This document shows positions 7,646-23,579 of a DNA stretch of 32,000 nucleotides, in pieces. The translations under genes were made by a program, and so were the position numbers. The notes under the pieces were generated by a model, which was not told where the DNA came from, searched no databases, and worked only from the letters and a program-made list of their open reading frames with translations. This stretch comes from an uncultured Actinomycetes bacterium. Lineage in GTDB: Bacteria; Actinomycetota; Actinomycetes; S36-B12; CAIYMF01. The stretch covers positions 1,260,001 to 1,292,000 of the forward strand of contig CAWJMG010000003.1 of NCBI GenBank assembly GCA_963843975.1, read 5' to 3'. The first letter of the stretch is position 1. Each line of letters opens with the position of its first letter.

Positions 7646-7657
7646 CGGGACCCGCTA
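7643..7657. terminator. Compact palindrome containing both convergent stop codons
   Basis: TAGCGGG-A-CCCGCTA. The TAG at 7643-7645 ends the + gene and the CTA at 7655-7657 is the TAG of the - gene. It could fold as a 6-bp stem with a 3-nt loop. Terminator function is a guess. Confidence 0.3.
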
Positions 7658-8887
7658 GTACAGCGCCATCCCGGTCACGCGCGCGGTCGACCAGCGAAGG
7701 CACCGCGACGACAGCTCGAGCGCAGGCACCGGCTCGCTCACGAGGTAGCCCTGGACCTTGTCGACGCCGAGCGTGCGCAGACGCTCGAACACCAGCGAGG
7801 TCTCGACGCCCTCTGCGGTCACCGCGAGCCCGAGCTGGTGGCCGAGCAGGACGGCGTTCTCGACGATGATCCAGTCGTTGAGGTTGTTGATGGGGTTCGC
7901 CGAGACGAACTCGCGGTCGATCTTCAGAGTGGTGAAGGGGTACCAGCGCAGGCGGTCGACGGTGGACGAGCCCGTGCCGTAGTCGTCGATGGCCAGCTTG
8001 AACTGCGCGAGCCCCAGCCGTGTCATGACGTCGAGCGCGGTCACCGCCACGCCGTCCGCGACCGTCTCGGTGATCTCCAGCGTCCAGGACGACGGCGGTG
8101 CCGCGCGGCCGAGGATGGACAGCAGCTCGTCCGGCGTCTCAGGCACGTTGAGGTCGAGCGCCGAGACGTTGATCGACACGTCGTCGAGGTCGGCGACGCC
8201 CGGCACCGACATGCGGTCCTCGGCCACCTGCTGCGCGACGTGCAGGAGCAGGTCGTGCTGACGCCCGAGCCGCTCGAGAGCCGGGACGAACTGGTCGGGC
8301 GGGATCAGCCCGTGCTCGGGGTGCCGCCAGCGCACCAGCGCCTCGGCCGAGCGGACGGTGCCGTCGGCGACGTTCGCGATGGGCTGGTAGAGCACGTGCA
8401 GCTGCGACGGCACCAGGTCGTCGATGATCGTGTTGACGTCGGGTCGCTGGCGCAGCACGAGCGCGGACTTCTGGACGGCGTCTCGGCAGTCGCGCAGCAG
8501 CGTACGCAACGACGAGAGGCCGAGCGGCTTGGGCATCGTGCCCAGCACCTGCAGGCCGTACAGCTGGGCGACGCGCGTCGCGGACGCGATGATCCGCTCC
8601 GACGCCCCACTGGCCAGCACCACCCGCGCGCCAGGCGCACGGCTCGCCAGGGTCTTCATCACGGCGATGCCGTCGCTGCCGATCAGCGCGAGGTCGAGGA
8701 CGATCACGTCGAAGTCCGCACCGAGCAGGCGGTCGATCTCCTCGGCCGTGCTCGCGCTCTGCGCCACGAAGCCCACCATGTTGGCGACGTCCGAGATCAG
8801 CTCGCAGATCGACGGCTCGTCGTCCACCACCAGCAGGCGGGGTCCTGCGTCCACCAGCGCGATCGGCATGGTCGTCGGGTCGCTCAT
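7655..8887 (-). CDS. Response regulator with REC + EAL (c-di-GMP phosphodiesterase) domains
   Basis: ATG 8887 overlaps the stop of the upstream kinase (ATGA at 8884-8887). REC motifs are LLVVDDEPS and DVIVLDLAL. The EAL domain retains YQPI, AEALVRW, LEITET, AIDDYGTGSS, LKIDREF, TAEGVET and QGYL. Confidence 0.9.
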   Translation of the reverse strand: MSDPTTMPIALVDAGPRLLVVDDEPSICELISDVANMVGFVAQSASTAEEIDRLLGADFDVIVLDLALIGSDGIAVMKTLASRAPGARVVLASGASERIIASATRVAQLYGLQVLGTMPKPLGLSSLRTLLRDCRDAVQKSALVLRQRPDVNTIIDDLVPSQLHVLYQPIANVADGTVRSAEALVRWRHPEHGLIPPDQFVPALERLGRQHDLLLHVAQQVAEDRMSVPGVADLDDVSINVSALDLNVPETPDELLSILGRAAPPSSWTLEITETVADGVAVTALDVMTRLGLAQFKLAIDDYGTGSSTVDRLRWYPFTTLKIDREFVSANPINNLNDWIIVENAVLLGHQLGLAVTAEGVETSLVFERLRTLGVDKVQGYLVSEPVPALELSSRCLRWSTARVTGMALY

Positions 8888-11805
8888 CGCACTACCTCCG
8901 CGGTTGCGGCGAGGACGTCGCCGGGGACGCGCAAGGCGTCGTGGAGCTCGTCCTTGGTGAAGGGCTTCGCGAGCACCCGGGTTCCGATCGCCTGCGCCTC
9001 GGCCATGCGGTCGGAGTAGCCGGTCATCAGCACCACGGCGACATCGGGAAGCAGCGCGGTCACCCGTGCCGCCACCTCGATCCCGTCCATCTCGGGGTCG
9101 CCGAGGCGGATGTCCGTGACGAGCACGTCGGGGTGGAACGACGCCGCGAGCTCCAGCGCCTCGAGGGGCGTGGACGCGACCCGCACCGAGGCTCCGGTCT
9201 CCTCGACCCATGCGCCCACCAGTCCGGCGAGCGCCGCCTCGTCGTCGACGACGAGGACGCGCCTCGCACCGGCCACGGGGCCGTCGGCCACGGGCTCGTC
9301 GGGGTCGACGTCGGTCGCTGCGAGAGGCAGGAACATCTGCACCGAGGTGCCGCTGCCGGGCTCGGTGACGATCGTGGCCATGCCGCCGCTCTGCGTGGCC
9401 AGCGAGTAGACCGCCGTCAGCCCGAGGCCCGTGCCGTTGCCGGTGCTCTTGGTGGAGAAGAAGGGCTCGAAGGCGCGCGCCCCGACCTCGGGGCTCATCC
9501 CCGAGCCGTCGTCGCGCACGTCGAGGACGACGTACTCACCCGGCGACACGTCGGCGACGCCGTCGCTGAGGGTCCTGCGTCCGACGTGGACGACGATCGT
9601 GCCGCCGACGTCCGTCGCATCGCGCGAGTTGATGACCAGGTTGAGCACGGCGCTCGAGAGCTGGCCGGAGTCGACGAGCACGTGATGGCTGCCCGGGTCG
9701 ACCTCGAGGGTGACGCTGCGCTGGCCGCCGACGGCCTGGCGCACCAGCGGCATCATGTCGCGCACGAACGACCCCACCTCGACGTCGCTCGCCTGCAGAG
9801 GCTGGCTCCGGGACACCGCGAGAAGCGAGGAGGCGATCTCGGTGCCGCGGCCCGCGGCGTCGACCGCGCGGTCGACGTACCGCACCAGGTCGGGGTGCGC
9901 CTCGACGCGGCCGTCCTCCTGCAGCATCTGCAGGTAGCCCGTGATGATGAAGAGCAGGTTGTTGAAGTCGTGGGCGAGACCGCCGGCCATCGTGCCGAGG
10001 GCCTGCAGCCTCTGGGCCTGGGCACCGCGCACGGCACGGGCGCGCTGCTCGGTGACGTCCTGCACCTGGATGAGGCCGCGGACGCCGTCGCGCTCGGCCA
10101 CGTGCACCGGGCTCGCGTTGACGAGGTAGATCCGCAGCGACTCCTCGGACGTCATGTCGACGTGCTCGAGCGTGCCGGGGATGCCGGTGACGCAGGCCTC
10201 GAGGAGGGTCGCGAACTTCGCCCGGTCCTGATCGGTCGTGCTGAACGGGAGGACGTCGACGACGTGGCGACCCACGAGCTCGTCGGCGGCCTTGTCGGTG
10301 CCCCCGTTGGCCATCCGGACGACGCCGTCGGAGTCGATGAGCGCGACGAGCCCGGGAGCCGAGGCGATGGCGGTGGCCAGGAGCTCCTCGCGGTCCTCGA
10401 GCCGGCGCTGCCCGCGGTAGCGCGCGTTGGCCGCCTGCAGGACGAGGAACAGCGCCACGATGCCGAAGCCGGCGAGGCCGAGCAGCACCATGGCGCGCAC
10501 GAGCATCGACGGACCGAGCGCATCGGTGGCGAGCGCCTCGATCCGCAGCGTCACGGTGCCGAACGTGGCATCGGCACCCGCACGCTCGGCCTCGGCGTCG
10601 AAGATCGCGTCCTCGGGCACGATGCTCGTCAGCGTCGTCTCCGGCCCCGTGGCGGGGACCTCGACGAGGACAAGCGCGACCTCGTCGTGGAGCGGACCGA
10701 GACCTGCTGCGGCCTCCTCGAAGACGACGGGCAGCGACACGGCCATGGAGAGCAGCCGCGGCACGGACGGGGCCGGATCGATCGACTGCGGTGTCACGAA
10801 CACCAGCGAGGGCTCGGGCTCTGCGTCGGCCGCAGGGACGTCACGCACCCCGAGGAGCTGAAGCGAGCCCGACTCGACGACCTGCGTGGCTGCGGTCCGG
10901 TCGGCGGGGCTGCCGCCCATCACCGCGGCGAGATCGGGCGAGCTCCCCTGCCGCGAGAGGATCTGCAGCGCCGTCGGACCGTCGGGCGTGCCGGCCAGCA
11001 GCGCGAGGGCGGAGACCGACGTGTTGCCGCCGAGGAACGGCTGCATCGCCTGGGCGAACGAGTCCTCGGTGTCCCAGGGCAGGCGCGGTGCTGTCGCGGC
11101 GCGGGCCATGTAGCTGTCGATGTCGGTGCCGACGGCCTGCTGGAACGACGCGGCCGCCGTGTCCGCGGCGGTCTGCAGCGTGGCGGCGTCGTCGGCCGCC
11201 CAGAACGCGAGCACCGCCCGGGCCCCGAGCCCCACGAGCGCTACGACCACGAAAGGGCCGGCGAGCGTCGACAGCGGCGACCGGGCCCGCTGACCGACCG
11301 TCGGTCGGGCGGCGACGGCCCCGGCGACGAACGCCGCGACCGCGACCGGGAGCGCACGGGCGAAGAACATCTCCGCGAACGTCGTCCACCCCGTCGAGGC
11401 GGGCAGCAGCCACGCCTCGGCCATGCCACCGAGCACGGCCACGGCGACGAGGTAGGTGCTGACGACCGCGAAGCGGTGCCCGGGCGCCGCGTTGGCGCCG
11501 GCTCGGCGCGGCGCGAGGGTCAGGGCGGCCGCCACGGCGCACGCCTCGACGACCCCGATGACCGCGGCGGCGGGGCTGACCCCGAGGCCCCCGACCGCGA
11601 GCTGCGCGGCGAGGGCGAGCAGGACGTAGGCGACCCGCTGCGGCACCGAGCGCACCTCGCGCAGGAGCGTCGCGAGGACGATGAGGTCGACGCGTACGAG
11701 ACCGTGGGTGAACGCGGCGAGCGCGGAGGATGCGACGACGACCAGCACGGCGAGAAGGGCGAGGGCGGCGCGGACGGCAGCGGGACGTCCCGCGGTCGCT
11801 GCCAT
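8884..11805 (-). CDS. Hybrid sensor histidine kinase (multi-TM N-terminus, extracytoplasmic domain, PAS, HisKA, HATPase_c, REC)
   Basis: ATG 11805 is preceded by GGAGG about 10 nt upstream, so the listed 1081-aa ORF is over-extended. About 7 N-terminal hydrophobic spans come first, then a hydrophilic stretch of about 260 aa, then one more TM. Kinase motifs are the H-box GGLAHDFNNLL, N-box LNLVINSRDA, DDGSGM, FEPFFSTK and GTGLGL. A C-terminal receiver is present (VLVVDDE, VLVTDIRL, AKPF). Confidence 0.9.
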   Translation of the reverse strand: MAATAGRPAAVRAALALLAVLVVVASSALAAFTHGLVRVDLIVLATLLREVRSVPQRVAYVLLALAAQLAVGGLGVSPAAAVIGVVEACAVAAALTLAPRRAGANAAPGHRFAVVSTYLVAVAVLGGMAEAWLLPASTGWTTFAEMFFARALPVAVAAFVAGAVAARPTVGQRARSPLSTLAGPFVVVALVGLGARAVLAFWAADDAATLQTAADTAAASFQQAVGTDIDSYMARAATAPRLPWDTEDSFAQAMQPFLGGNTSVSALALLAGTPDGPTALQILSRQGSSPDLAAVMGGSPADRTAATQVVESGSLQLLGVRDVPAADAEPEPSLVFVTPQSIDPAPSVPRLLSMAVSLPVVFEEAAAGLGPLHDEVALVLVEVPATGPETTLTSIVPEDAIFDAEAERAGADATFGTVTLRIEALATDALGPSMLVRAMVLLGLAGFGIVALFLVLQAANARYRGQRRLEDREELLATAIASAPGLVALIDSDGVVRMANGGTDKAADELVGRHVVDVLPFSTTDQDRAKFATLLEACVTGIPGTLEHVDMTSEESLRIYLVNASPVHVAERDGVRGLIQVQDVTEQRARAVRGAQAQRLQALGTMAGGLAHDFNNLLFIITGYLQMLQEDGRVEAHPDLVRYVDRAVDAAGRGTEIASSLLAVSRSQPLQASDVEVGSFVRDMMPLVRQAVGGQRSVTLEVDPGSHHVLVDSGQLSSAVLNLVINSRDATDVGGTIVVHVGRRTLSDGVADVSPGEYVVLDVRDDGSGMSPEVGARAFEPFFSTKSTGNGTGLGLTAVYSLATQSGGMATIVTEPGSGTSVQMFLPLAATDVDPDEPVADGPVAGARRVLVVDDEAALAGLVGAWVEETGASVRVASTPLEALELAASFHPDVLVTDIRLGDPEMDGIEVAARVTALLPDVAVVLMTGYSDRMAEAQAIGTRVLAKPFTKDELHDALRVPGDVLAATAEVVR

Positions 11806-12041
11806 GGATCCCTGCCTCCGCCTCGTGACCCCCGACGGGCGTCGTGGTCGATCGACGCTCGCGGGCCGGTGCTCCGGCGCGGCTGCCTTGCGTCTCTCCT
11901 GAGAGTAGGCACCGGGCAGGTGCCCAGTCGCCCCCACTTCTCCTCCCACGCAGCAGAGGAGAGGAAATCTTGAGCCCTTTCGGGTGTTCGGTGGAGCCTC
12001 CGGAGGCGACCTGGTCGCGTCTCCGCCCGTACGGTGTCTGC

Positions 12042-12497
12042 ATGCGCAAGAACCGGAGCAGGTGGACGACCGTGGGTGCAGCAGCTGCGCTCTCGCTCGC
12101 CCTCGGCATGGCGTCCGCCCTGCCGGCACAGGCCGTCACGGCCTCCTCGACGTCGGGCTCGATCAGCTTCACCGGATCCGGCACGTCGATGAAGGTCGTC
12201 ACGAGCGTGAAGTTCACCTCGACGTACGCCGGCTCCTACAACGTCAAGTACGACATCTACCGCAGCTTGTCCTCGTCGAGGTCCAGCGCCGTGAAGGTCA
12301 ACACCAAGACGGTGTTCACCAAGACGCTGTCGACCAGCAAGGGCTCGTCGTACACCTACGGCCCCAACTCGACCAACTGCGCGGCCGGCACGACGACGTA
12401 CTACTACTGGATCCAGGGCACGGTCACCGACACCACCGGCGGGACCGCCTCGTTCGTGTCCGCCGTCGCCTCGGCCAAGGCCTGCACGTCGCTGTGA
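12042..12497 (+). CDS. Small secreted two-cysteine protein, paralogue A (family unknown to me)
   Basis: ATG 12042 begins a signal peptide, MRKNRSRWTTVGAAAALSLALGMASALPAQA. Length is 151 aa. The protein is Ser/Thr/Tyr-rich and has 2 Cys. About half of its aligned positions are identical to the next ORF. Confidence 0.7.
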   Translation: MRKNRSRWTTVGAAAALSLALGMASALPAQAVTASSTSGSISFTGSGTSMKVVTSVKFTSTYAGSYNVKYDIYRSLSSSRSSAVKVNTKTVFTKTLSTSKGSSYTYGPNSTNCAAGTTTYYYWIQGTVTDTTGGTASFVSAVASAKACTSL

Positions 12498-12952
12498 CCG
12501 GCGCCGGACCTCGCTCGTTCCTGCGCTCCGCGACCGCAGTCGTGTCCGCCCTCCTGGTCGGCGCGACCGTCGTCGCACCCGCCCACGCGAGCGCGGCCAC
12601 CAACGCCGGCGCCAGCCTCAGCTTCTCGGGCTCGGGCAGCACGATGCGCATCGTCACCAGCGTGAAGTTCACGGCGACCTACACGGGCATGTACAACGTG
12701 AAGTACGACGTCTTCCGCAGTCTCTCGGCGTCCAAGACGAACCCCGTGAAGGTCAGCACCAAGACGGTCTTCAGCCGTACGTACTCGGCCATGAGCGGGA
12801 CGACGTACGTCTTCCGGCCGACCAGCTCGCTCTGCGCGGCCGGCGGCACCACGTACTACTACTGGGTGCGCGCGTCGGTCTCCGACACCGCGACCGGAAC
12901 CGTCGTCGTTCGGTCGCCCGTCGTCGCCGCCGCAGGCTGCACCGAGATCTGA
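12494..12952 (+). CDS. Small secreted two-cysteine protein, paralogue B
   Basis: GTG 12494 overlaps the stop of paralogue A (GTGA at 12494-12497). The signal-like N-terminus is VTGAGPRSFLRSATAVVSALLVGATVVAPAHASA. Shared blocks are SFxGSGxxMxxVTSVKFTxTYxGxYNVKYDxxRSLS, VKVxTKTVF and CAAGxTTYYYW, plus a C-terminal Cys. It is embedded in a longer listed ORF (11984..12952) whose N-terminal part is out-of-frame shadow. Confidence 0.7.
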   Translation: MTGAGPRSFLRSATAVVSALLVGATVVAPAHASAATNAGASLSFSGSGSTMRIVTSVKFTATYTGMYNVKYDVFRSLSASKTNPVKVSTKTVFSRTYSAMSGTTYVFRPTSSLCAAGGTTYYYWVRASVSDTATGTVVVRSPVVAAAGCTEI

Positions 12953-12961
12953 CGCCGCCGC

Positions 12962-14116
12962 TCAGACGTTCGCGAGCGCGAGCTGCAGCGTCTCGGTGAC
13001 GAGGTCGAAGACCCGCTCGCGCTCGACGAGGAACCCGTCGTGGCCGTACGGCGACGTGATCGCGCGCAGGCCGCCCACGGTGCCCGGTGCGTTCTCGGCC
13101 ACGAAGCCCTGGGTGTGCAGCGGGTAGAGGCGGTCGCTGTCGATGCCCGCAACCACGAGAGGCACCGAGACGCGGGCGAGGGCGGCCTCCGCTCCCCCAC
13201 GGCCACGACCGACGTCCCACGTGTTCATCGCGTCCGTCAGGGCGACGTAGGTGCCGGCGTCGAAGCGGTGCAGCAGCTTGGCCGCCTGGTGGTCGAGGTA
13301 CGACTGGACGGCGTACCGCCCGCCCGACAGCGGGTCCTCGCCGTCCTGGGGCTGCGACCCGAAGCGGGTCGCGAGCTCCAGCTCGCTGCGGTAGGTGAGG
13401 TGGGCGATCCGCCGCGCGATCCCGAGGCCCGCTGTGGGCCCCTCCCCCGGCGCCGCGTCGTGGTAGTCGCCGCCGCGCCAGCCCCGGTCCGAGGTGACGG
13501 CGAGGATCTGCGCGGTCTGGGTGCCGATCTGGTCGGCCGTCGCGACGGCACCCGAGGCGAGGAACAGGGCCGAGGCGATGCGGTCGCCGTGGCCGACGGC
13601 CCATTCCAGCGCCCGCATGCCACCCATCGAGCCGCCGAGCACGGACGCCCAGCGCGCGATGCCGAGATGGTCTGCGAGGGCTGCCTCGGCCCGCACCTGG
13701 TCGCCGACGGTGATGCGCGGGAACCGCGACCCGTAGCGGGCTCCGTCCGGAGCGAGCGAGGACGGCCCCGTCGTGCCCTGGCAGCCGCCGAGGATGTTGG
13801 GCGCCACGACGAACCAGCGGTCGGTGTCCAGCGGGGCCCCGGGCCCGATCAGGCCGTCCCACCATCCGGGCGTCGGATGCCCCGGTCCTCTGTCGCCCAC
13901 CACGTGGGAGTCGCCGGTGAGGGCGTGCAGCACGAGCACGGCGTTGGAGCGGTCGGCGTCGAGCTCGCCCCAGGTCTCGTACGCCACGGTGACGTCGTCC
14001 AGGCGGCCCCCGAGCTCGAGATCGAGCCCGCCGAGCCGCGCGAACCTGCGAGCGCCCACGGGGTCACCCGCCTGCCAGGCACCGCTGGCAGGAGGGAGAC
14101 CCCGGGCGTCGCTCAT
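12962..14116 (-). CDS. metX: Homoserine O-acetyltransferase
   Basis: The internal ATG at 14116 of the listed 825-aa ORF gives 384 aa. Family blocks are [38 protein letters not shown], the nucleophile elbow LGGSMGGM, and SPYGHDGFL at the C-terminus. Confidence 0.9.
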
Positions 14117-14121
14117 GGAGG

Positions 14122-15439
14122 TCAGGCGCTCTTGGCCGCGCGGAAGCCGGCGTCGAGGTCGGCGAGGATGTCCTCGATGTTCTCGATGCCCACCGAGAGG
14201 CGGACGAGGCCGGGGGTGACGCCGGTCGTGGCCTGCTCCTCCGCGGTGAGCTGCGAGTGCGTGGTCGACGCCGGGTGGATCACGAGCGAGCGCACGTCGC
14301 CGATGTTGGCGACGTGGCTGTGCAGCTCGAGGCCCTCGACGAAGCGCTTGCCCGCCTCGACGCCGCCCTGGATCTCGAAGGCGAGGACGCCGCCCGTGCC
14401 CTTCGGCGCGTACTTCTGACCGCGCTCGTACCACGGCGAGGCTCGGCAGGCCGGCGTAGTTCACCGACAGCACCTCGTCGCGCGTCTCGAGCCACTCGGC
14501 CACGCGCTGCGCGTTCTGCACGTGCCGCTCGACGCGCAGCGACAGCGTCTCGATGCCTTGCGCGATGAGGAACGCGTTGAACGGCGAGACTGCGGAGCCG
14601 AGGTCGCGCAGCAGCTGCACGCGGGCCTTGAGGATGAACGCGAGGTTGGCACCGAGGGCCGAGCCGACGCCGAGGTCGCGCGCGTAGACGAGGCCGTGGT
14701 AGCTCGGGTCGGGCTGGTTGTAGTTCGGGAATCGCTCGGGGTCGGCGGCGAAGTCGAAGCGGCCGCTGTCGACGATCACGCCGGCGATCGACGAGCCGTG
14801 GCCGCCGAGGTACTTCGTTGCCGAGTGCACGACGATGTCCGCGCCCCACTCGAACGGACGGATGAGGTACGGCGTCGCCACCGTGTTGTCGACGACGAGC
14901 GGCACGCCGACCTCGTGGGCGACCTTGGCGACGCCCTCGATGTCGAGGATGTCGTTCTTCGGGTTGGAGATCGTCTCGCCGAAGAACGCCTTGGTGTTCG
15001 GGCGTGCGGCCGACCGCCACTGCTCGAGGTCGTCGGGGTCCTCGACGAACGAGACCTCGATGCCCAGCTTGGGGAACGTGTAGTGCAGGAGGTTGTACGT
15101 GCCGCCGTAGAGCGAGGGGCTGGCCACGATGTGGTCGCCGGCCTCGGCGAGGTTGAGCAGGGCGATGGTCTCGGCCGCCTGGCCGCTCGACACCAGGAGC
15201 GCGGCGAGGCCGCCCTCGAGCGCGGCGACGCGGTCCTCGACCGCCGCCTGCGTCGGGTTCATGATGCGGGTGTAGATGTTGCCGAACTCCTTGAGGCCGA
15301 ACAGGTTGGCCGCGTGCTCGGTGGAGTCGAAGGTGAACGACGTGGTCTGGTAGATCGGCAGCGCACGTGCGTTGGTCTGGCTGTCGGGCGTCTGGCCCGC
15401 GTGGATCTGCTTGGTCTCGAAGCTCCAGTCGGCGCTCAT
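14122..15439 (-). pseudogene. metY: O-acetylhomoserine sulfhydrylase interrupted by a 1-nt insertion (or sequencing error)
   Basis: The span is 1318 nt, which is 3n+1. From ATG 15439 the frame gives a canonical MetY N-terminus ([24 protein letters not shown]) up to ...VNYAGLPS. The canonical continuation [23 protein letters not shown]...[10 protein letters not shown]...[22 protein letters not shown] with TGA at 14122-14124 lies one frame over. Coding strand reads ctg ccg agc C tcg ccg tgg, so the extra base is G at + strand 14440/14441. Confidence 0.85.
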
Positions 15440-15828: not shown

Positions 15829-17475
15829 CTAGTAGGCGCCGCGCGACGCGAGCACGGCGCGAACGGTGCGCACCATGATCGCGATGTCGAGCAGGAAGCT
15901 CCAGTTCTCGACGTAGTACAGGTCGAGACGGACCGAGTCCTCCCAGCTGAGGTCGGCGCGACCGCTGACCTGCCAGAGGCCGGTGAGGCCGGGCTTGACG
16001 AGCAGACGGCGCTGCACGTGGTTCTCGTACTGCGCCACCTCGCGCGGCAGCGGCGGCCGCGGCCCGACGAGCGACATCTGGCCGAACAGCACGTTGACCA
16101 GCTGCGGCAGCTCGTCCAGGGACGTCTTGCGGAGGAACTTGCCGACGCGGGTGATGCGCGGGTCGTCGACGACCTTGAGCAGCGGGCCGTCGCCGTGGAC
16201 GTTGGCGGCCTTGATGTCGTCGAGGCGCGCCTCGGCGTCCATGCTCATGGATCGGAACTTCAGCATCGTGAAGGTCTTGCCCGCGCGCCCGACGCGCTCC
16301 TGGCGGAAGAAGGCCGGGCCGTGCGAGTCGAGCCGGACTGCGATCGCGAGCACGAGGAACAGCGGAGCGAGGAGCACGAGGGAGACGAAGGCGACGCCTC
16401 GGTCGAAGAGCCCCTTGAAGACGCGGCGGAAGCCGGTGAACTCGGGCTTCTCGACGTGCAGCAGCGGCAGGCCGGCGACCGGTCGCACCGAGATGCGCGG
16501 GCCTGAGACGTCGGTGAGGTTCGGCGTGACGAGGATGTCGACGTGGGTGCCCTCGAGCTCCCACGACAGGCGGCGGAGCTCGGCCTGCGACAGCGTCGAC
16601 CACGCGCCGAACGCGATGGTGTCCGCACCGGACCGGATGAGGGCGTCAGCGGCGTCGCGAGAGGTGCCCACGACCGGGACACCCTCGACGGTGTCGCCCT
16701 GCGCCTGGTCGACGAGCGCGCCGACCACGAGGAACGGGTGGTCGTCGTGGCGGCGCAGGCGGCGGATGAGCTCGGCGGTCGAGCGCTCGGTGCCGATGAC
16801 GAGCACGCGGCGCGAGGCCGTGCCCTCCCTCTCGGCGCGACGCTCGACGCGGCGGCCGATGGCGCGCACGATCAGGCTGAGGACCATCGCCAGCGGGATG
16901 GCGACGATGGCGTAGCCGCGGGCGAAGTCCCAGTTGAGCAGGTACGACAACAGCGCCAGGATCGCGAGGAACCGCACCGCGGAGTCGAGCACGCGGCGGA
17001 ACTCGTCGGTGCCGTCCCCGATGAACCGGGCCTCGTAGGCGCGGCCGAGCCCGAGCACGCCCACCCAGGCGAGCGGGAAGAGCAGGGTGACCGGCAGGTA
17101 GATCGCGTTGGGGCCGTAGCCGGCGTCGACGCCGAAGCGCAGGACGAGGGCGAAGGACGCGGCGAAGAAGGCAGCGAGCGCGTCGGCGACGATCAGGCCG
17201 CGGATGTAGCGCTTGACCCAGCGGACCCTGCGCAGGGAGATCGCCTCCAGGTCGGGGCGCCGGTCCTCGGGAGTGAGGTCGGCCTTGAAGATACGGGTCG
17301 TCTGCTGGGGAACGCTGGTCAGGACCGGCGGCTCGACCGCCGTGGCGCCGGGGACGAGGGCGATGACCTCGGGGTCAACGGGGTCTGCTGCGCGCAGGGC
17401 GTCGTCGATCGCGTGCGCCAGGCCCGCGCTCTGCGCCCGCTGCCGCTCCACCGCCACCGCTTCCTCGTCGAGCAT
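15829..17475 (-). CDS. Polyprenyl glycosylphosphotransferase (WbaP/CpsE-type priming sugar transferase)
   Basis: ATG 17475 is preceded by GGGGGAG. N-terminal TM spans and a linker are followed by the conserved C-terminal bacterial sugar-transferase domain (FRQERVGRAGKTFTMLKFRSM, DELPQLVNVLFGQMSLVGPRP, KPGLTGLWQVSGR). Confidence 0.9.
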   Translation of the reverse strand: MLDEEAVAVERQRAQSAGLAHAIDDALRAADPVDPEVIALVPGATAVEPPVLTSVPQQTTRIFKADLTPEDRRPDLEAISLRRVRWVKRYIRGLIVADALAAFFAASFALVLRFGVDAGYGPNAIYLPVTLLFPLAWVGVLGLGRAYEARFIGDGTDEFRRVLDSAVRFLAILALLSYLLNWDFARGYAIVAIPLAMVLSLIVRAIGRRVERRAEREGTASRRVLVIGTERSTAELIRRLRRHDDHPFLVVGALVDQAQGDTVEGVPVVGTSRDAADALIRSGADTIAFGAWSTLSQAELRRLSWELEGTHVDILVTPNLTDVSGPRISVRPVAGLPLLHVEKPEFTGFRRVFKGLFDRGVAFVSLVLLAPLFLVLAIAVRLDSHGPAFFRQERVGRAGKTFTMLKFRSMSMDAEARLDDIKAANVHGDGPLLKVVDDPRITRVGKFLRKTSLDELPQLVNVLFGQMSLVGPRPPLPREVAQYENHVQRRLLVKPGLTGLWQVSGRADLSWEDSVRLDLYYVENWSFLLDIAIMVRTVRAVLASRGAY

Positions 17476-17739
17476 CTCTCCCCCTTTCACCAGCTGCCGC
17501 CCGAGTCGACCCGGGCCACCGAACGTCTCGACTACCGGACACTGCAATCCGCCTGAACGCGAGATGAACGGAGAGGCAATCCCTGCTGTCCACCATGCGT
17601 CCGGACGGGTTCTCCGTCGTCACGCTCATGGATACCTCAGCACCGTTTCGTGCAGGTTGCTTCCACCGAACGGCTGAAGGTTTCGGCCCACGCGGGCGGA
17701 CATCACCCGTATGGGTGAACGACCACGACGATCGGTGAG

Positions 17740-19287: not shown

Positions 19288-20429
19288 GCCTTGCCCTCCA
19301 GGCGGTTCGCGATGCTGACGGTGGCGGGCGCCGGCGCGGTGGCCGGTGCGTGAGAGCGGTGCTTGGGTGCGAGCAGGCCCCACACCACCACGACGCCGTA
19401 CTCCCCCAGCCGGACGAGCGACTCGCGGACGACGGCCATGCGCGTGCCTTCGCGGACGACGACGACGACCAGGTCGCTGGTCTGGGTGCGGAGCTCGGCG
19501 CCCTCGCCGGTGCCGGGGGCACCGACTGCGACGAGACCGATGTCGCCCGACGTCCCGGCGTCGTCGGCGCGGGCCACGGCCTGCGACGCGTTCGGCGTGG
19601 TGGACCCAGCGCTGCGGGCCGACGCGGCAGGGTCCGGGCCGAGGCTCGCCAGGAGGTCCTTGACGTCGTCGCGGGACATCGGAGCGGTGGCCACGACGGC
19701 GACCTCGGGCGCCTCGACGCCCGAGAGCGACCGCCAGCGGTACGCGAGAGCGCGCGCCTCGGCGGGCGTCACGGTGCCCCAGTCGGTGGCGGGGGTGCCG
19801 AGGAGATCGGCGAGGTCGTCGGCCGTGTCGACGCGACGGTCGGAACGCTCGAGCGCGAAGGCGGCCAGCAGGCCCACCAGCAGGCCGAGGAGGCCGCCGA
19901 TGAACAGGGCCGACGAGCTGGACTCGCCCACGCGGACGGCGGCGTCAGGCACCGTGACGAGCTTCAGGCCGTCCTTGACGATCTGGCCGGGCGGGATCGG
20001 CCGCGTGACCGTGGTGGCGACCGCTGCCGCGGAGTCGACCGCCACCAGCGCCTTCTTGGCCACGACGTCGATGCGGACGAGCGCCGTTCCGGGGTCGCTC
20101 GTGACGGTGAGGCTCTCCCGCAGGTCCTTGGGCGCCACCCCCGCCTTCGCAGCGGCCGCGGCGATCACGGCGTCGTCGAGCGGGATGAGCGTGGCGTAGT
20201 TGGTGGCGGACTTCGCGGCGGCGTCGGGCGAGCCCGGCGGCAGCCCGCCCGGCGCGACCGCGGGAGCGATGACGACGGCCTCGGCCTGGTAGAGCGCCGG
20301 GGTGCGCGAGGACACGAGGAAGGCCACGCCCACTCCCACCACGACGCAGAGCAGGACGATGTACCAACGACGCTGCATCGGCTTGCGCCAGCGTCGGAGA
20401 CCACGGAAGCGGCCGGTGGTCGAGGTCAT
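19284..20429 (-). CDS. Wzz/polysaccharide co-polymerase-like protein with a degenerate BY-kinase-like C-terminal domain
   Basis: ATG 20429 is preceded by GGAGG and overlaps the upstream stop (ATGA at 20426-20429). TM1 is WYIVLLCVVVGVGVAFLV, followed by YQAEAVV, an extracytoplasmic stretch of about 160 aa, and TM2 ALFIGGLLGLLVGLLAAFAL. The C-terminal region resembles tyrosine-kinase partner domains (DLVVVVVREGTR) but has no GK[ST] Walker A. Confidence 0.65.
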   Translation of the reverse strand: MTSTTGRFRGLRRWRKPMQRRWYIVLLCVVVGVGVAFLVSSRTPALYQAEAVVIAPAVAPGGLPPGSPDAAAKSATNYATLIPLDDAVIAAAAAKAGVAPKDLRESLTVTSDPGTALVRIDVVAKKALVAVDSAAAVATTVTRPIPPGQIVKDGLKLVTVPDAAVRVGESSSSALFIGGLLGLLVGLLAAFALERSDRRVDTADDLADLLGTPATDWGTVTPAEARALAYRWRSLSGVEAPEVAVVATAPMSRDDVKDLLASLGPDPAASARSAGSTTPNASQAVARADDAGTSGDIGLVAVGAPGTGEGAELRTQTSDLVVVVVREGTRMAVVRESLVRLGEYGVVVVWGLLAPKHRSHAPATAPAPATVSIANRLEGKA

Positions 20430-21487
20430 GGGCGTCGTGCCTCCGTTGCTGGCTCGGCGTCGGACGCCGGGTCGTCGTGCAGGTCTCGCGCTCGCGCGGG
20501 TGCGTCGAGGTCGAGCATCGCGAGCAGCGCCTGCCGTTGATTGTCCCAGCGTCGTTGCTGGCGCGCGCGCACGGTGTCGAGGTCGTGCACGAGCCGGTCG
20601 TGGTCCCGTACGGCGAGGCTGAGCGCCTCGGCGATGCCCGCGCGGTCGTTCGCGCAGCACACCGCCTCGGGGAACAGCTCCCGCATGGTCAGAGTGTCGC
20701 TCATGACGAGCACCCGACGCGCGTAGCCGGCCTCATATGCAGCACGCATCACGGAGGTCGGCTCGGTGGTCAGGGCGAGCAGGATGTCGCAGGCGTCGAC
20801 CTCGGCGGCGTACGCGGCCTGGTCGAGCCAGCCCGTGAGGCGGACGTTCGGCGGAAGGTCGTCGAGCAGGCCGTCGCCCGCCTTGCGCGGATCGCCGGTG
20901 ACGACGACGTCGACGTCGGGGAGATCGCGCGCGGCACCGATCACCTCGGCCACCGGCTCGTCGGAGGCGAAGACGCACGAGAAGAGCACCTGCGGGCGGC
21001 GGGCGTCCAGCGGCCGTGCGGGCGAGGTGGACCAGTGCGGCGGCGCCTCGTGGAGGACCAGCGGTGTCCCGCCCCACGAGCGCACGACGTCTGCCCACGA
21101 GTCGGTGGTCACGAGGACCCCGTCGGCCAGGCGGGCGAGGCGCTGAGTGACCTTGAGCATCTTCTGCGCCTGCGCGTTGTCCTTGGCGCCGAAGGATGCC
21201 GGGTGGCTGTCGAGGACGAAGCGGGCACGCGTGAGCCTGGCCCAGCCGAGGCCGATCAGGCCCGGGTAGACCGGAGGGTTCTGCACCACGACCGCGCGGG
21301 GGCGGCTGCGGACGAGACGTCCCACGGTGACGAGCGCGCTGGCGGCGTACCGCACCGGCGTCAGCCGACGCTCGGCGAGCCGCTTCGGGTAGATCGTGAC
21401 GGCCTCGCCGTCGAGGTCCGCCGCCAGGTCGCGGGCACGACCGGCGGTGGGTGCCCAGGCGAGGAACTGAACGCGGGCGCGGCTCAT
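20426..21487 (-). CDS. Glycosyltransferase (GT-B fold, GT4-like)
   Basis: 353 aa. ATG 21487 overlaps the upstream stop (ATGA at 21484-21487). It has a two-Rossmann-like layout with the C-terminal block ILLALTTEPTSVMRAAYEAGYARRVLVMSD. Family assignment has moderate support only. Confidence 0.6.
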   Translation of the reverse strand: MSRARVQFLAWAPTAGRARDLAADLDGEAVTIYPKRLAERRLTPVRYAASALVTVGRLVRSRPRAVVVQNPPVYPGLIGLGWARLTRARFVLDSHPASFGAKDNAQAQKMLKVTQRLARLADGVLVTTDSWADVVRSWGGTPLVLHEAPPHWSTSPARPLDARRPQVLFSCVFASDEPVAEVIGAARDLPDVDVVVTGDPRKAGDGLLDDLPPNVRLTGWLDQAAYAAEVDACDILLALTTEPTSVMRAAYEAGYARRVLVMSDTLTMRELFPEAVCCANDRAGIAEALSLAVRDHDRLVHDLDTVRARQQRRWDNQRQALLAMLDLDAPARARDLHDDPASDAEPATEARRP

Positions 21488-22440
21488 GCGGCACCGTCCC
21501 GGAGCAGCTGGAACACGGGCGGGTCAGGAACGGGTTCGACCGTGCGGGCCATGGCCGCGCTCAGCACCGCGGCGTCGAGGTCGTCGACCTCGCACGCGAT
21601 GGCCACGCCGCGGCGGTCGAGCTCGGCCGCGATCTGCACCTGGTGGTCGTCGACGTGCTCGCCGTACGCGAGCCGGCGCGGCAGCAGGACCGCGCACTTG
21701 CCCTCGGCCATCGCGAGGAGCCCCGAACCCGTGCCGGAGTGGCCCACCACGAGGTCGGCCTCGCGGACCGCGGCGGACAGGTCGGCCGAGGGCACGCTGT
21801 GCTTGCCGTCCACGGGCAGGCCGCTGATGTCGGTGTCGCCGGTCTGCCACAGCACCTCGGCGTCCGCGGGCAGCACCGCGAGGAGCTTCTCGACCGCCCG
21901 GCGGAAGCCGTACGGCGAGATGGTGCCGAGCGTGACGACGACGGACCGGGGAACCGTGGGCGCGCCGACGCGGGCCGGGCCGGGGCGGAAGGCGTCGAGG
22001 ATCGAGCCGGAGTAGTGCCAGCGCCCGCCGGCCCAGGCCGGGTACTGCGAGTACGTGTTGACGCCGGGGATGCGCGAGACGATCTTGCCCGACAGCGAGG
22101 GGCCGTCCGCCCTGGCGGCGCTCTCGACGTAGTGGCACGTGATGCCGCGGGCGCGCGCGGGGACCATGAAGGACACCGCGACGCTGGCGCCGGTCGACAC
22201 GACCCGGTCGTACGTGCCCGTCTTGAGCAGGTCGTTGGCGGTGCGGCCGATCGTCACCGCGACCGCGAGGTCGCGCGGGGCGGCGTACGGCACGTAGACG
22301 ACGTCCTCCCCGGCGAGCAGCGACCGCGACTGCGGCGTGTCGAAGGTGACCCAGGTGACGTCGCCGATGGGCAGGCGGGGGCGCAGGGTCCACATCTGCT
22401 GGAGGTGGCCGCCTCCCGAGCAGACGAGCAAGGTGGTCAT
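21484..22440 (-). CDS. Fused Alg14-like + Alg13-like (Glyco_tran_28_C) glycosyltransferase
   Basis: The N-terminal LLVCSGGGHLQQM matches the Alg14/PssD-like motif. The C-terminal half (VVVTLGT...VVGHSGTGSGLLAMAEGK...DDHQVQIAAEL) matches the Alg13/PssE-like half. ATG 22440 overlaps the upstream stop (ATGA at 22437-22440). Confidence 0.7.
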   Translation of the reverse strand: MTTLLVCSGGGHLQQMWTLRPRLPIGDVTWVTFDTPQSRSLLAGEDVVYVPYAAPRDLAVAVTIGRTANDLLKTGTYDRVVSTGASVAVSFMVPARARGITCHYVESAARADGPSLSGKIVSRIPGVNTYSQYPAWAGGRWHYSGSILDAFRPGPARVGAPTVPRSVVVTLGTISPYGFRRAVEKLLAVLPADAEVLWQTGDTDISGLPVDGKHSVPSADLSAAVREADLVVGHSGTGSGLLAMAEGKCAVLLPRRLAYGEHVDDHQVQIAAELDRRGVAIACEVDDLDAAVLSAAMARTVEPVPDPPVFQLLRDGAA

Positions 22441-23498: not shown

Positions 23499-23579
23499 CG
23501 CGCCGCCGTATCTACCTGTTCGGCCTACCGCGGTCGCACGACCCGCGTCCCGGGTCGTCACCACCGGTCACGCAGAGCA

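What the first reader, a model, noticed from the sequence alone, without database searches (positions are those of the whole stretch)
11806..12952. Tandem pair of unassigned small secreted two-cysteine proteins, divergent from a sensor-kinase/EAL operon
Two translationally coupled ORFs (12042..12497 and 12494..12952, GTGA overlap) encode proteins of 151 and 152 aa. Each has a clear N-terminal signal peptide.

I counted about half of the aligned mature positions as identical. Shared blocks:
- S-[IL]-SF-x-GSG-x-x-M-x-x-VTSVKFT-x-TY-x-G-x-YNVKYD-x-x-RSLS
- VKV-x-TKTVF
- C-AAG-x-TTYYYW
- a second Cys 4-5 residues from the C-terminus, suggesting one conserved disulfide

The proteins are Ser/Thr/Tyr-rich and beta-strand-like. 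They contain no catalytic motif I recognise, and I cannot name a family for them.

A 236-bp region separates them from the hybrid histidine kinase, which is transcribed the other way and has an extracytoplasmic domain of about 260 aa. That region carries several symmetric elements:
- GGCACC-GGGCA-GGTGCC at 11908-11924
- the perfect 12-bp palindrome GCCTCCGGAGGC at 11996-12007
- GCGAC-CTG-GTCGC at 12006-12018

Inference: the pair may be an extracellular partner or ligand, or a regulated output, of the kinase/c-di-GMP module. If so, this would be a signalling unit I have not seen described. It is my best candidate for novelty in the window.
Basis: partly seen in the sequence, partly recalled or inferred. 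Interest (0 to 1): 0.7.

Follow-up and report, generated by a model that had tools for sequence, protein, structure and literature searches.

The report
Orphan secreted beta-sandwich pair beside c-di-GMP genes
Two adjacent genes encode small exported proteins of a previously unnamed family found only in a narrow group of uncultured actinobacteria; they always lie next to genes that control the signalling molecule c-di-GMP, but their function is still unknown.

Summary
ORF A (12042..12497) and ORF B (12494..12952) overlap by GTGA. They are 51% identical and clearly coding (GC3 0.95/0.93; dN/dS 0.3-0.45). Each has a Sec-type signal peptide and two invariant cysteines.

No Pfam, NCBIfam, PHROGs, PADLOC or PDB sequence match exists. 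The family is tiny: 40 clusters among 5.8 billion proteins, and 3 of 185,579 species genomes, all Nanopelagicales-like MAGs.

AlphaFold gives a confident eight-strand beta-sandwich. Foldseek finds only generic Ig/FN3-like folds (ApaG, CsgC, GH2 Ig domains, RbmA). There is a borderline profile link to bacterial FN3 domains.

Nearly all homologous loci share whole-neighbourhood synteny, so that linkage counts as one event. One locus (L010) is independent: a single copy lies 117 bp downstream of a cytoplasmic PAS-GGDEF-EAL gene.

The conserved elements are a 17-nt motif, a -10-like hexamer for the kinase operon, and a TAnnnT-N6-start arrangement suggesting a leaderless mRNA.

Best reading: a lineage-specific exported FN3-like surface or matrix protein set, functionally tied to c-di-GMP signalling as an output rather than as a kinase ligand. 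Moderately interesting; function unproven.

The parts
12042..12497 (+). ORF A, 151 aa. First-position ('A-type') paralogue: exported FN3/Ig-like beta-sandwich protein. Mature part about 120 aa, pI about 9.7, 40% Ser+Thr.
   Evidence: GC3 0.95; family alignment; AF2 mature domain, pLDDT about 83-92 for most blocks; groups with position-1 orthologues; dN/dS 0.33-0.45.
12042..12134 (+). Predicted Sec signal peptide of ORF A (residues 1-31, cleavage after AQA).
   Evidence: Sequence read directly, hydrophobic core, pLDDT <50 for residues 1-27. The AxA site is conserved in the family. Cleavage is inferred, not tested.
12494..12952 (+). ORF B, 152 aa. Last-position ('C-type') paralogue, translationally coupled to ORF A by the GTGA overlap.
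   Evidence: GC3 0.93; orthologous to the third gene of three-gene loci L001/L003/L006, 72-75% identity; dN/dS 0.31-0.44. Four-nt overlaps recur in L001, L003 and L006.
12494..12589 (+). Predicted Sec signal peptide of ORF B (residues 1-32, cleavage after AHA).
   Evidence: Inferred.
12378..12485 (+). Span between the two invariant Cys codons of ORF A (C113 at 12378-12380, C148 at 12483-12485). The equivalents in ORF B are at 12833-12835 and 12938-12940. Presumed single disulfide.
   Evidence: Both Cys are invariant in all aligned members.
12030..12035 (+). TACGGT, a -10-like hexamer (TAnnnT) exactly 6 nt before the ATG of ORF A. Suggests a leaderless transcript starting at the start codon.
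   Evidence: TAnnnT-N6-ATG/GTG is present at the first paralogue in all eight syntenic loci examined, including the diverged L008 (TAGGCT...GTG) and L011. There is no Shine-Dalgarno sequence before the ATG. The promoter role is inferred.
12006..12011 (+). GCGACC, a -35-like element 18 nt upstream of the -10-like hexamer.
   Evidence: GCGAC is invariant in the five-locus alignment. The right half (GTCGC) is kept only in the window, L003 and L006.
11959..11975 (+). Conserved 17-nt motif GAGAGGAAATCTTGAGC between the divergent operons.
   Evidence: It occurs once per syntenic locus at 3 or fewer mismatches. The core GGAAATCTTGAGC is unique in the 32-kb window, with 0.2 expected at up to 2 mismatches. 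It lies a fixed 57-58 bp from the kinase-side block in all locus types. L011-type loci carry a second, inverted copy. Its TTG is not a conserved start: the frame stops after 3, 15 or 49 codons in L006, L011 and L008.
11902..11907 (-). TACTCT on the minus strand, a -10-like hexamer for the kinase/EAL operon. GCGACT (11926-11931, minus strand) lies 18 nt upstream as a -35-like element.
Evidence: The columns are invariant. It reads TAnnnT on the minus strand in 6 of 6 locus types but on the plus strand in only 3 of 6 (read output). The role is inferred.
8884..11805 (-). Hybrid sensor histidine kinase, 973 aa: about seven TM segments, a loop of about 234 aa predicted to be extracytoplasmic, one TM segment, then PAS_4, HisKA, HATPase_c and REC.
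   Evidence: The loop has no Pfam match and its AF2 model is unusable (pLDDT 45).
7655..8887 (-). REC-EAL response regulator, 410 aa, a predicted c-di-GMP phosphodiesterase. It overlaps the kinase stop by 4 nt.
   Evidence: EAL 2.9e-50, Response_reg 2.9e-11. The EAL, N, ExxE, DDxGTG, KxD, EGVE and QGY motifs are visible in the translation.

Best explanation
ORF A and ORF B are real paralogous genes. They belong to a lineage-specific family, not yet in any curated library, of small proteins that are exported and then probably cleaved by signal peptidase.

Each mature protein is about 120 aa, basic and Ser/Thr/Tyr-rich. It folds into one Ig/FN3-like beta-sandwich, probably stapled by a single conserved disulfide. 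It has no catalytic motif, no lipid anchor and no sortase signal.

The most likely role is structural, adhesive or binding at the cell surface or in the extracellular matrix, as a set of two or three specialised paralogues made together from one operon. Within the window-type group of loci, each array position forms its own orthologue group.

Production or use of these proteins is functionally coupled to c-di-GMP turnover, as an output or co-regulated partner of the pathway. They do not appear to be a ligand of the kinase's outer loop.

In this window they are transcribed divergently from a kinase/REC-EAL phosphodiesterase operon. The shared 236-bp control region holds two sigma-A-like promoters, the small-gene one apparently leaderless, and one conserved 17-nt motif that is a candidate site for a common regulator.

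Shown:
- gene reality
- paralogy
- signal-peptide features
- fold class
- family distribution
- synteny
- the second independent c-di-GMP context
- the conserved DNA elements

Inferred:
- export
- the disulfide
- a surface or matrix role
- the promoter assignments
- regulatory coupling
For: **Real genes under selection**
- GC3 is 0.95 and 0.93.
- dN/dS against orthologues is 0.31-0.45, and dN is about twice that of the neighbouring EAL, metX and Bac_transf genes. This is typical of exposed proteins.

**Export**
- Both proteins have an n-region, h-region and AxA site.
- The N-terminal 27 residues are disordered in the model.

**Fold**
- The AF2 model has mean pLDDT 77.5, with most 10-residue blocks of the mature part at 83-92 (one at 73) and eight strands.
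- The top 16 Foldseek PDB hits are Ig/FN3-like sandwiches: ApaG, GH2 Ig-like domains, CsgC and BsuPI. Further down are GH3 FnIII-like domains and, at rank 24, the biofilm matrix protein RbmA. Scores are weak: E 8e-4 to 1e-2, TM 0.4-0.5.
- A whole-library HMM search reaches proteins with FN3 repeats at E 3.6e-4 to 6e-4.
- hhalign against those repeats gives 96.8% probability over strands C to F.

**Not an enzyme or a known family**
- Nothing was found in Pfam (all 27 members tested), NCBIfam, PHROGs, PADLOC or PDB sequences.

**Paralogue sets maintained**
- Positions 1, 2 and 3 form separate orthogroups across L001, L003, L006 and the window.
- Four-nt overlaps between the genes recur.

**c-di-GMP link**
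- The genes are divergent from the kinase/REC-EAL operon in every syntenic locus.
- Independently, in L010 the gene lies 117 bp downstream, on the same strand, of a non-orthologous PAS-GGDEF-EAL gene in an otherwise unrelated neighbourhood.
- L010 also carries GAAACTTGAGG, which resembles the motif core, about 90 nt upstream of its gene.

**Shared control region**
- Conserved elements are documented.

**Precedent**
Against: - No experiment, and no homologue with a known function.
- The fold matches are weak and generic, so fold class says little about function.
- The FN3 profile link used target repeats picked from the query's own hits, which is circular. Canonical FN3 domains (fibronectin 10Fn3, tenascin Fn3) give no signal.
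- The independent genomic link rests on one locus (L010). My estimate that chance adjacency is below about 1% assumes about 10 GGDEF/EAL genes per roughly 2,700-gene genome, which I did not measure.
- The 17-nt motif keeps a fixed distance to the kinase-side promoter, not to the small genes. It may regulate only the kinase operon.
- Promoter and leaderless assignments are pattern-based. The simple sigma-70 scan found nothing.
- The disulfide distance could not be measured.
Confidence: 0.45

Rival explanations
1. Accessory protein or ligand of the kinase. The exported proteins bind the loop of about 234 aa, predicted to be extracytoplasmic, on the hybrid histidine kinase. They would set its activity, and through the REC-EAL protein the c-di-GMP level, much as LpqB acts on MtrB or ExoR on ExoS (comparisons from my own knowledge).
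For: - The divergent adjacency is kept across the whole clade, down to about 40-50% identity of the small proteins.
- The kinase loop has no known domain. It diverges about as fast as the small proteins: 53% identity between the window and L011 loops, against 38-51% for the small proteins.
- The kinase N-terminal and loop region found few homologues, all apparently from the same clade. Those searches were technically limited.
Against: - In L010 the neighbouring c-di-GMP protein is soluble, with no TM or extracytoplasmic part, and no kinase is nearby.
- Accessory proteins of this kind are usually co-transcribed with their kinase, not divergent (my own knowledge).
- Two or three diverged paralogues are more than a single sensor partner would need.
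- Synteny within one clade is not independent evidence.
- No interaction modelling could be run.
Confidence: 0.15
2. Coincidental neighbours. The small proteins are lineage-specific exported beta-sandwich proteins with a role unrelated to c-di-GMP, for example glycan or cell-wall binding, protection, or a proteinase-inhibitor-like role. They merely occupy a stable syntenic slot between the kinase operon and metX.
For: - All but one locus are explained by inherited gene order.
- The conserved motif tracks the kinase promoter rather than the small genes.
- Foldseek hits include binding and inhibitor modules: BsuPI, CsgC and carbohydrate-enzyme Ig domains.
- The many invariant surface-capable Tyr/Trp residues (Y62, Y66, Y70, Y104, YYYW) would suit glycan binding.
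Against: - The L010 adjacency to a second, non-orthologous c-di-GMP enzyme in an unrelated neighbourhood is unlikely by chance.
- A motif-core-like sequence lies upstream of the L010 gene.
- L011-type loci have a second, inverted motif copy lying 71-87 nt upstream of the small-gene start.
Confidence: 0.3
3. Subunits of a polymer. The paralogues assemble into a heteromeric extracellular fibre or sheath by strand exchange or disulfide linking. They would be functionally comparable to chaplins/rodlins, TasA or Bacillus Ena fibres, with assembly governed by c-di-GMP.
For: - Tandem arrays of two or three small beta-sandwich paralogues are maintained as separate orthogroups.
- There is an invariant Cys pair.
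- The composition is Ser/Thr-rich.
- An exopolysaccharide-type gene cluster lies nearby: Bac_transf and GT4 in the window, Wzy_C in L001.
- There is a weak, non-significant Pfam similarity to BclA_C in 5 of 27 members.
Against: - The AF2 monomer is a complete, self-contained sandwich, and its first strand is placed confidently.
- Nothing in the data indicates polymerisation.
- L010 has a single copy.
- No dedicated assembly or secretion genes are adjacent.
Confidence: 0.1

Closest known systems
Bacterial fibronectin type III-like (FN3) domains of surface proteins, with the 'YxVYRS ... TYYYxVxA' pattern (Pfam fn3 PF00041 / GH85_C-type repeats, as in P0048)
   Same: - Beta-sandwich of similar size.
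- Shared strand C to F sequence pattern: YNVKYDVYRS...VKVNTKTVFT...TTYYYWVQG against KYEVYRATS...IKTTTGTSFT...KTYYYKVKA.
- hhalign probability 96.8%.
- Library-wide HMM E-values of 3.6e-4 to 6e-4.
- Foldseek hits to FN3/Ig-like folds.
   Different: - No member reaches any Pfam FN3 or Ig model, even at E = 1.
- No signal against canonical FN3 sequences.
- A 16-residue insertion carrying the first invariant Cys lies between strands E and F.
- It is a stand-alone single domain with its own signal peptide, not a repeat inside a large protein.
- It has a conserved Cys pair.
RbmA (two FnIII domains), the Vibrio cholerae biofilm matrix protein of a c-di-GMP-controlled matrix regulon
   Same: - Exported FN3-type sandwich with no enzymatic site.
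- Appears among the Foldseek hits (rank 24).
- Conceptually, a matrix protein whose production follows c-di-GMP (my own knowledge).
   Different: - No sequence similarity.
- RbmA is a two-domain dimer in a Gram-negative organism and is encoded inside the vps/rbm cluster.
- Here there is a single domain, tandem paralogues, and a phosphodiesterase module as neighbour.
- Any matrix role here is untested.
Chaplins and rodlins of Streptomyces (hydrophobic sheath proteins)
   Same: - Small exported actinobacterial proteins encoded as several paralogues.
- Chaplin domains carry two conserved Cys (my own knowledge).
[quoted passage not shown]
   Different: - Unrelated in sequence and fold: chaplins are hydrophobic amyloid-forming domains of about 55 aa.
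- The present proteins are hydrophilic, basic sandwiches of about 120 aa.
- There is no evidence of amyloid or surface-active behaviour.
ApaG/DUF525 and CsgC (small single-domain Ig/FN3-like proteins)
   Same: Best structural matches: 1xq4 (E = 8.4e-4, TM 0.38-0.54 across its three chains) and 2xsk (TM up to 0.53). Size and strand topology class are similar.
   Different: - Sequence identity is 9-16%.
- ApaG is cytoplasmic.
- CsgC has a CxC motif and belongs to curli operons.
- None of their defining motifs or contexts is present here.
Extracytoplasmic accessory proteins of sensor kinases (LpqB-MtrB, CseA-CseC, ExoR-ExoS, YycH/I-WalK)
   Same: An exported protein encoded beside a membrane sensor kinase that has a sizeable outer loop.
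   Different: - Those accessory genes are usually in the same operon as the kinase. Here they are divergent.
- The one independent context (L010) has no kinase.
- There is no homology to any of them.
- Comparison from my own knowledge; not tested.

Membership tests
Pfam fn3 (PF00041) / bacterial FN3-like domains | Match to the family HMM at or above the gathering score | tested here: not met
   No fn3 hit for either window protein at E<=10, nor for any of the 27 family members at E<=1.
Pfam fn3 (PF00041) / bacterial FN3-like domains | Seven-strand Greek-key sandwich with the conserved strand C (YxVxYR) and strand F (YxYxVxA, tyrosine corner) patterns | tested here: inconclusive
   - AF2 gives an eight-strand sandwich.
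- Foldseek hits are Ig/FN3-like but weak, with TM 0.4-0.5.
- hhalign gives 96.8% against FN3 repeats taken from the query's own weak hits.
- hhalign gives below 1% against 10Fn3 and tenascin Fn3.
Sec-exported soluble proteins (signal peptidase I substrates) | N-terminal basic region, hydrophobic core and AxA cleavage site, without a lipobox Cys | tested here: met
   Read directly from the sequence and the hydrophobicity calculation, and conserved across the family. No dedicated signal-peptide predictor was available, and export itself is untested.
Sortase-anchored surface proteins / pilins | C-terminal LPXTG-type sorting signal followed by a hydrophobic tail | tested here: not met
   The proteins end 3 residues after the last Cys (…CTSL, …CTEI). 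The NCBIfam LPXTG-family hit (E = 0.067) covers only the signal peptide.
Chaplins (DUF320) / rodlins | Chaplin domain HMM match; a short hydrophobic domain | tested here: not met
   No Pfam hit. The mature proteins are hydrophilic, with 40% Ser+Thr and pI about 9.7.
Copper-binding cupredoxin/CopC-like (one source labels homologue P0024 'plastocyanin') | Conserved His/Cys/Met copper ligands and an HMM match | tested here: not met
   There is no His and at most one to three Met in the mature proteins. The only Cys are the two invariant ones. There is no Pfam cupredoxin hit. The label appears on 1 of 40 homologues.
c-di-GMP-associated gene module (functional linkage, not a sequence family) | Recurrent adjacency to GGDEF/EAL genes in independent genomic contexts | tested here: inconclusive
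   Two independent contexts only: the syntenic kinase/REC-EAL locus type and L010's PAS-GGDEF-EAL. The family occurs in too few genomes for statistics.
Known structured RNA leaders (e.g. c-di-GMP riboswitches) | Rfam covariance-model match in the 5' region | tested here: not met
   - No Rfam hit at gathering score in the whole window.
- Only chance-level hits in 11700-12200.
- The region folds no better than shuffles (z = +1.0).
- The covariation term is unfavourable.

The most novel reading that the evidence does not exclude
The tandem paralogues are the building blocks, or the secreted effector set, of a previously undescribed c-di-GMP-governed cell-surface structure in uncultured Nanopelagicales-related actinobacteria. 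This would be a disulfide-stapled FN3-like sheath, fibre or adhesin. It would be made from a leaderless operon and co-controlled with a sensor-kinase/REC-EAL phosphodiesterase through the shared 17-nt motif. That would make it a new output class of actinobacterial c-di-GMP signalling, beyond the chaplin/rodlin sheath of Streptomyces.
Probability: 0.12. Interest if true: 0.65.

Novelty: new member of a known kind. Interest (0 to 1): 0.35.

Why it matters
- If the link to c-di-GMP is real, these genes would be a candidate extracellular output of second-messenger signalling in a group of actinobacteria known only from metagenomes. In that group nothing is known about surface biology or c-di-GMP targets.
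- They also define a compact new sequence family: about 120 aa, an invariant Cys pair and a YYYW strand. It could be added to domain libraries so that it stops being annotated as 'hypothetical', or wrongly as 'plastocyanin'.
- The family is very narrowly distributed, its fold class is common, and no function is shown. For now it is a modest annotation gain rather than a new biological principle.

Tried and rejected
**Family and structure searches**
1. Curated family searches all gave nothing significant: Pfam, NCBIfam, PHROGs, PADLOC, PDB sequences and a PDB profile search.
3. The weak Pfam BclA_C similarity (E = 0.17, 5 of 27 members) was rejected as non-significant.

**RNA and upstream reading frame**
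4. A riboswitch or structured leader was rejected: no Rfam hit, no excess stability and no net covariation. One hairpin, GAGCAC-loop-GUGYUC, has a single one-sided change that keeps the pair (G-U to G-C in L006); I did not pursue it.
5. I considered the conserved SD-like GGAGAGGAAA plus the TTG at 11970 as the true start of ORF A, or as a leader peptide. I rejected it as a conserved coding feature because the frame stops after 3, 15 or 49 codons in L006, L011 and L008. Some gene callers did use this start (the 173-aa call in L003).
6. The simple sigma-70 and terminator scan found nothing. ECF-type (GGAAC...GTT), sigma-WhiG-type and BldD-box readings of the motif were considered by eye and dropped because no consistent -10 or box was present.

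**Kinase sensor loop**
7. Searches with the kinase N-terminal region and outer loop returned only 4 and 1 hits, because word pre-filtering was swamped by Ala-rich sequence. They are uninformative about wider distribution.

**Other**
9. Extra context look-ups (P0041, P0039, L018) gave only standard synteny or very short contigs.
10. A literature search for Nanopelagicales plus c-di-GMP found no papers.
Full report
**1.

The window is 72% G+C. ORF A (12042..12497, ATG, 151 aa) and ORF B (12494..12952, GTG, 152 aa) overlap by GTGA. They align without gaps at 51% identity (68/134, E = 2e-47).

Third-position G+C is 0.95 and 0.93, against 0.64-0.68 in the upstream in-frame extensions. This is the coding signature of a high-GC genome. 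Against orthologues, dN/dS is 0.31-0.45. For the adjacent REC-EAL, metX and Bac_transf genes it is 0.13-0.18, and their dN is about half as large. The small genes are therefore under purifying selection but evolve faster than the neighbouring cytoplasmic enzymes.

Both proteins begin with a basic stretch, a hydrophobic core and an AxA site: AQA|V in A and AHA|S in B. There is no lipobox Cys, no LPXTG and no consistent twin-arginine motif across the family. The mature parts are about 120 aa, with pI about 9.7 and 31-40% Ser+Thr. Two Cys (C113 and C148 in A) are invariant in every member aligned.

**2. What the proteins are**

No curated library recognises them. Pfam was run on both window proteins and on all 27 aligned members. 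NCBIfam, PHROGs, PADLOC, PDB sequences and a PDB profile search were also negative.

The family is extremely narrow:
- 40 clusters among 5.8 billion proteins, all at least 57% identical to ORF A.
- Three full-length representatives at 50% identity among 1.84 billion proteins read exhaustively with a family profile.
- Three of 185,579 species-representative genomes. Two are labelled Candidatus Nanopelagicales MAGs and one an Actinomycetota MAG.
- Seven metagenome loci.

AlphaFold2 with the family alignment gives a confident all-beta model: mean pLDDT 77.5, most blocks of the mature part at 83-92, eight strands, and a disordered signal peptide. Foldseek against PDB returns only generic Ig/FN3-like sandwiches at weak scores (E 8e-4 to 1e-2, TM 0.4-0.5). 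These are ApaG, GH2 Ig-like and GH3 FnIII-like domains, CsgC, the BsuPI inhibitor and RbmA.

The exhaustive profile search also reaches, at library-wide E of 3.6e-4 to 6e-4, proteins whose matched segments are bacterial FN3 repeats (Pfam fn3 3.5e-11 in P0048). A profile-profile comparison with those repeats gives 96.8% probability over strands C to F. It places a 16-residue insertion carrying the first Cys.

That test is partly circular, because the targets came from the query's own hits. Canonical FN3 sequences give no signal. I therefore call the fold 'Ig/FN3-like' and leave FN3 family membership open.

**3. Paralogue history**

Loci carry one, two or three copies. In a distance tree, the position-1, position-2 and position-3 genes of L001, L003 and L006 form three separate groups. 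The window's ORF A falls in the position-1 group. ORF B falls in the position-3 group, at 72-75% identity to those genes. The window has thus lost, or never had, the middle copy. The L011/L017 and L008 lineages have their own sets. Four-nt overlaps between consecutive genes recur. Keeping distinct paralogue types over this depth suggests the copies are not redundant.

**4. Genomic context**

In the window the order is:
- LPG_synthase_TM-like protein
- a 242-aa membrane protein
- REC-EAL (7655..8887, minus strand)
- hybrid kinase (8884..11805, minus strand)
- the two small genes
- metX and metY (convergent)
- a Bac_transf/glycosyltransferase cluster

The same order appears in every other locus long enough to judge, including those only 40-50% identical. 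This is inherited gene order in one clade and counts as a single observation.

The one exception is informative. In L010 (MAG Chersky_517) a single copy lies 117 bp downstream, on the same strand, of an 843-aa soluble PAS-GGDEF-EAL protein. It is flanked by MFS and DUF4442 on one side and by convergent KatG, Fur, ferritin-like and GcvP on the other. That protein aligns with the window's REC-EAL at only 31% identity and is essentially unrelated to the kinase.

So the family lies next to c-di-GMP enzymes in two unrelated settings. If such genomes carry about ten GGDEF/EAL genes among roughly 2,700 genes, chance adjacency would be below 1%. That gene count is my assumption, not a measurement. Because the L010 partner has no extracytoplasmic part, the tie is more likely regulatory or pathway-level than a physical ligand-sensor contact.

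**5. The control region**

Short inverted repeats are mildly enriched in the 236 bp. In the alignment of five orthologous regions, however, the first two palindromes are not conserved. Of the third, only GCGAC (12006-12010) is invariant.

Three elements are conserved:

a. AGAGTA at 11902-11907. On the kinase strand this reads TACTCT, and TAnnnT in all six locus types. A GAC-containing hexamer lies 18 nt upstream. This is a plausible sigma-A-type promoter for the kinase operon.

b. TAnnnT exactly 6 nt before the start codon of the first small gene. It is present in all eight syntenic loci examined, including the diverged L008 (TAGGCT-N6-GTG) and L011. GCGACC lies 18 nt upstream, and no Shine-Dalgarno sequence is present. 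From general knowledge of actinobacterial transcription, where leaderless mRNAs are common, this geometry predicts a transcript that starts at the A of ATG 12042.

c. A 17-nt motif, GAGAGGAAATCTTGAGC (11959-11975).
   - It is present once per syntenic locus.
   - Its 13-nt core is unique in the window.
   - It lies a fixed 57-58 bp from element (a), while its distance to the small-gene start varies between 71, 145 and 169 nt.
   - L011-type loci carry a second, inverted copy lying 71-87 nt upstream of the small-gene start.
   - L010 has a similar core, GAAACTTGAGG, about 90 nt upstream of its gene.
   - It resembles a ribosome-binding site plus TTG, and some gene callers used it. It is not a conserved reading frame.

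I read the motif as a candidate binding site for a regulator acting on one or both divergent promoters. This is inference. No known RNA family or stable conserved RNA structure is present.

**6. Mechanism, ranked**

1. Confidence about 0.45: exported, disulfide-stapled FN3-like proteins with a structural, adhesive or binding role at the cell surface. They are produced as a co-translated set and functionally coupled to c-di-GMP turnover as an output or co-regulated partner.
2. Confidence about 0.30: unrelated exported proteins that merely share a stable syntenic slot.
3. Confidence about 0.15: extracytoplasmic accessory or ligand of the kinase loop. The L010 context argues against this.
4. Confidence about 0.10: subunits of a fibre or sheath.

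The nearest functional precedents are c-di-GMP-controlled surface and matrix proteins. Examples are the Streptomyces sheath genes (bioRxiv 10.1101/2020.04.24.060822) and, from my own knowledge, RbmA of Vibrio cholerae. Neither is homologous to this family.

**7. Verdict**

This is a real, well-defined orphan family with a common fold class and a suggestive but thinly supported link to c-di-GMP signalling. It is a new member of a known kind (small exported Ig/FN3-like proteins), not a demonstrably new signalling unit. Interest is moderate to low (0.35). It would rise if expression proved c-di-GMP-dependent or if a surface structure were found.

Noticed in passing
window 12962..15439 (-), especially about 14100-14460: metY (O-acetylhomoserine sulfhydrylase-like, Cys_Met_Meta_PP) and metX (Abhydrolase_1) read as one 825-aa ORF with an Arg/Pro-rich nonsense middle. 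The metY profile is matched only to position 282 of 381. An alternative frame at 14122-14460 has GC3 0.96. Relatives L003, L006 and L008 have two separate genes, while L001 shows a similar 747-aa fusion. This is probably a frameshift from assembly error, or a pseudogene.
   Followed up: partly
window 11959-11975; L011 9742-9758 and about 9836-9852: A conserved 17-nt motif, GAGAGGAAATCTTGAGC, lies at a fixed 57-58 bp from the kinase-side -10-like block in every locus type. L011-type loci have a second, inverted copy. It is a candidate operator of an unknown regulator. It looks like SD+TTG but is not a conserved ORF start.
   Followed up: partly
window 12030-12044 and the equivalent positions in L001, L003, L006, L008, L011, L012 and L015: TAnnnT-N6-ATG/GTG is found at the first paralogue in all syntenic loci. 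This implies a leaderless mRNA. The public record's gene call for ORF A (P0001, 141 aa) starts 10 codons further in and drops the basic n-region.
   Followed up: partly
L010 7296..10441 (JADGOZ010000067.1): A single-copy family member lies directly downstream of a soluble PAS-GGDEF-EAL gene, next to a convergent KatG-Fur-ferritin-like-GcvP block. This is a completely different neighbourhood from all other loci.
   Followed up: yes
window 15829..17547 (-), 20426..23567 (-); L001 14222..18019: A polysaccharide-synthesis-type cluster lies just beyond metXY and is syntenic across the clade. It comprises a Bac_transf priming transferase with a CoA_binding_3 domain and GT4 glycosyltransferases in the window, plus Wzy_C in L001. 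A possible functional relation to the secreted proteins was not examined.
   Followed up: no
window 8884..11805 (-), residues about 204-437 of the kinase: The loop of the hybrid kinase predicted to be extracytoplasmic has no Pfam domain. It is conserved at 53-78% across the clade. The few homologues found by a limited search all appear to come from this clade. Its AF2 model was unusable (pLDDT 45). It may be an undescribed sensor domain.
   Followed up: partly
P0024 (homologue, JGI record): One source labels a family member 'plastocyanin'. Nothing in the sequence supports copper binding: the mature window proteins have no His, and there is no cupredoxin HMM hit. This is probably an annotation error.
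   Followed up: partly
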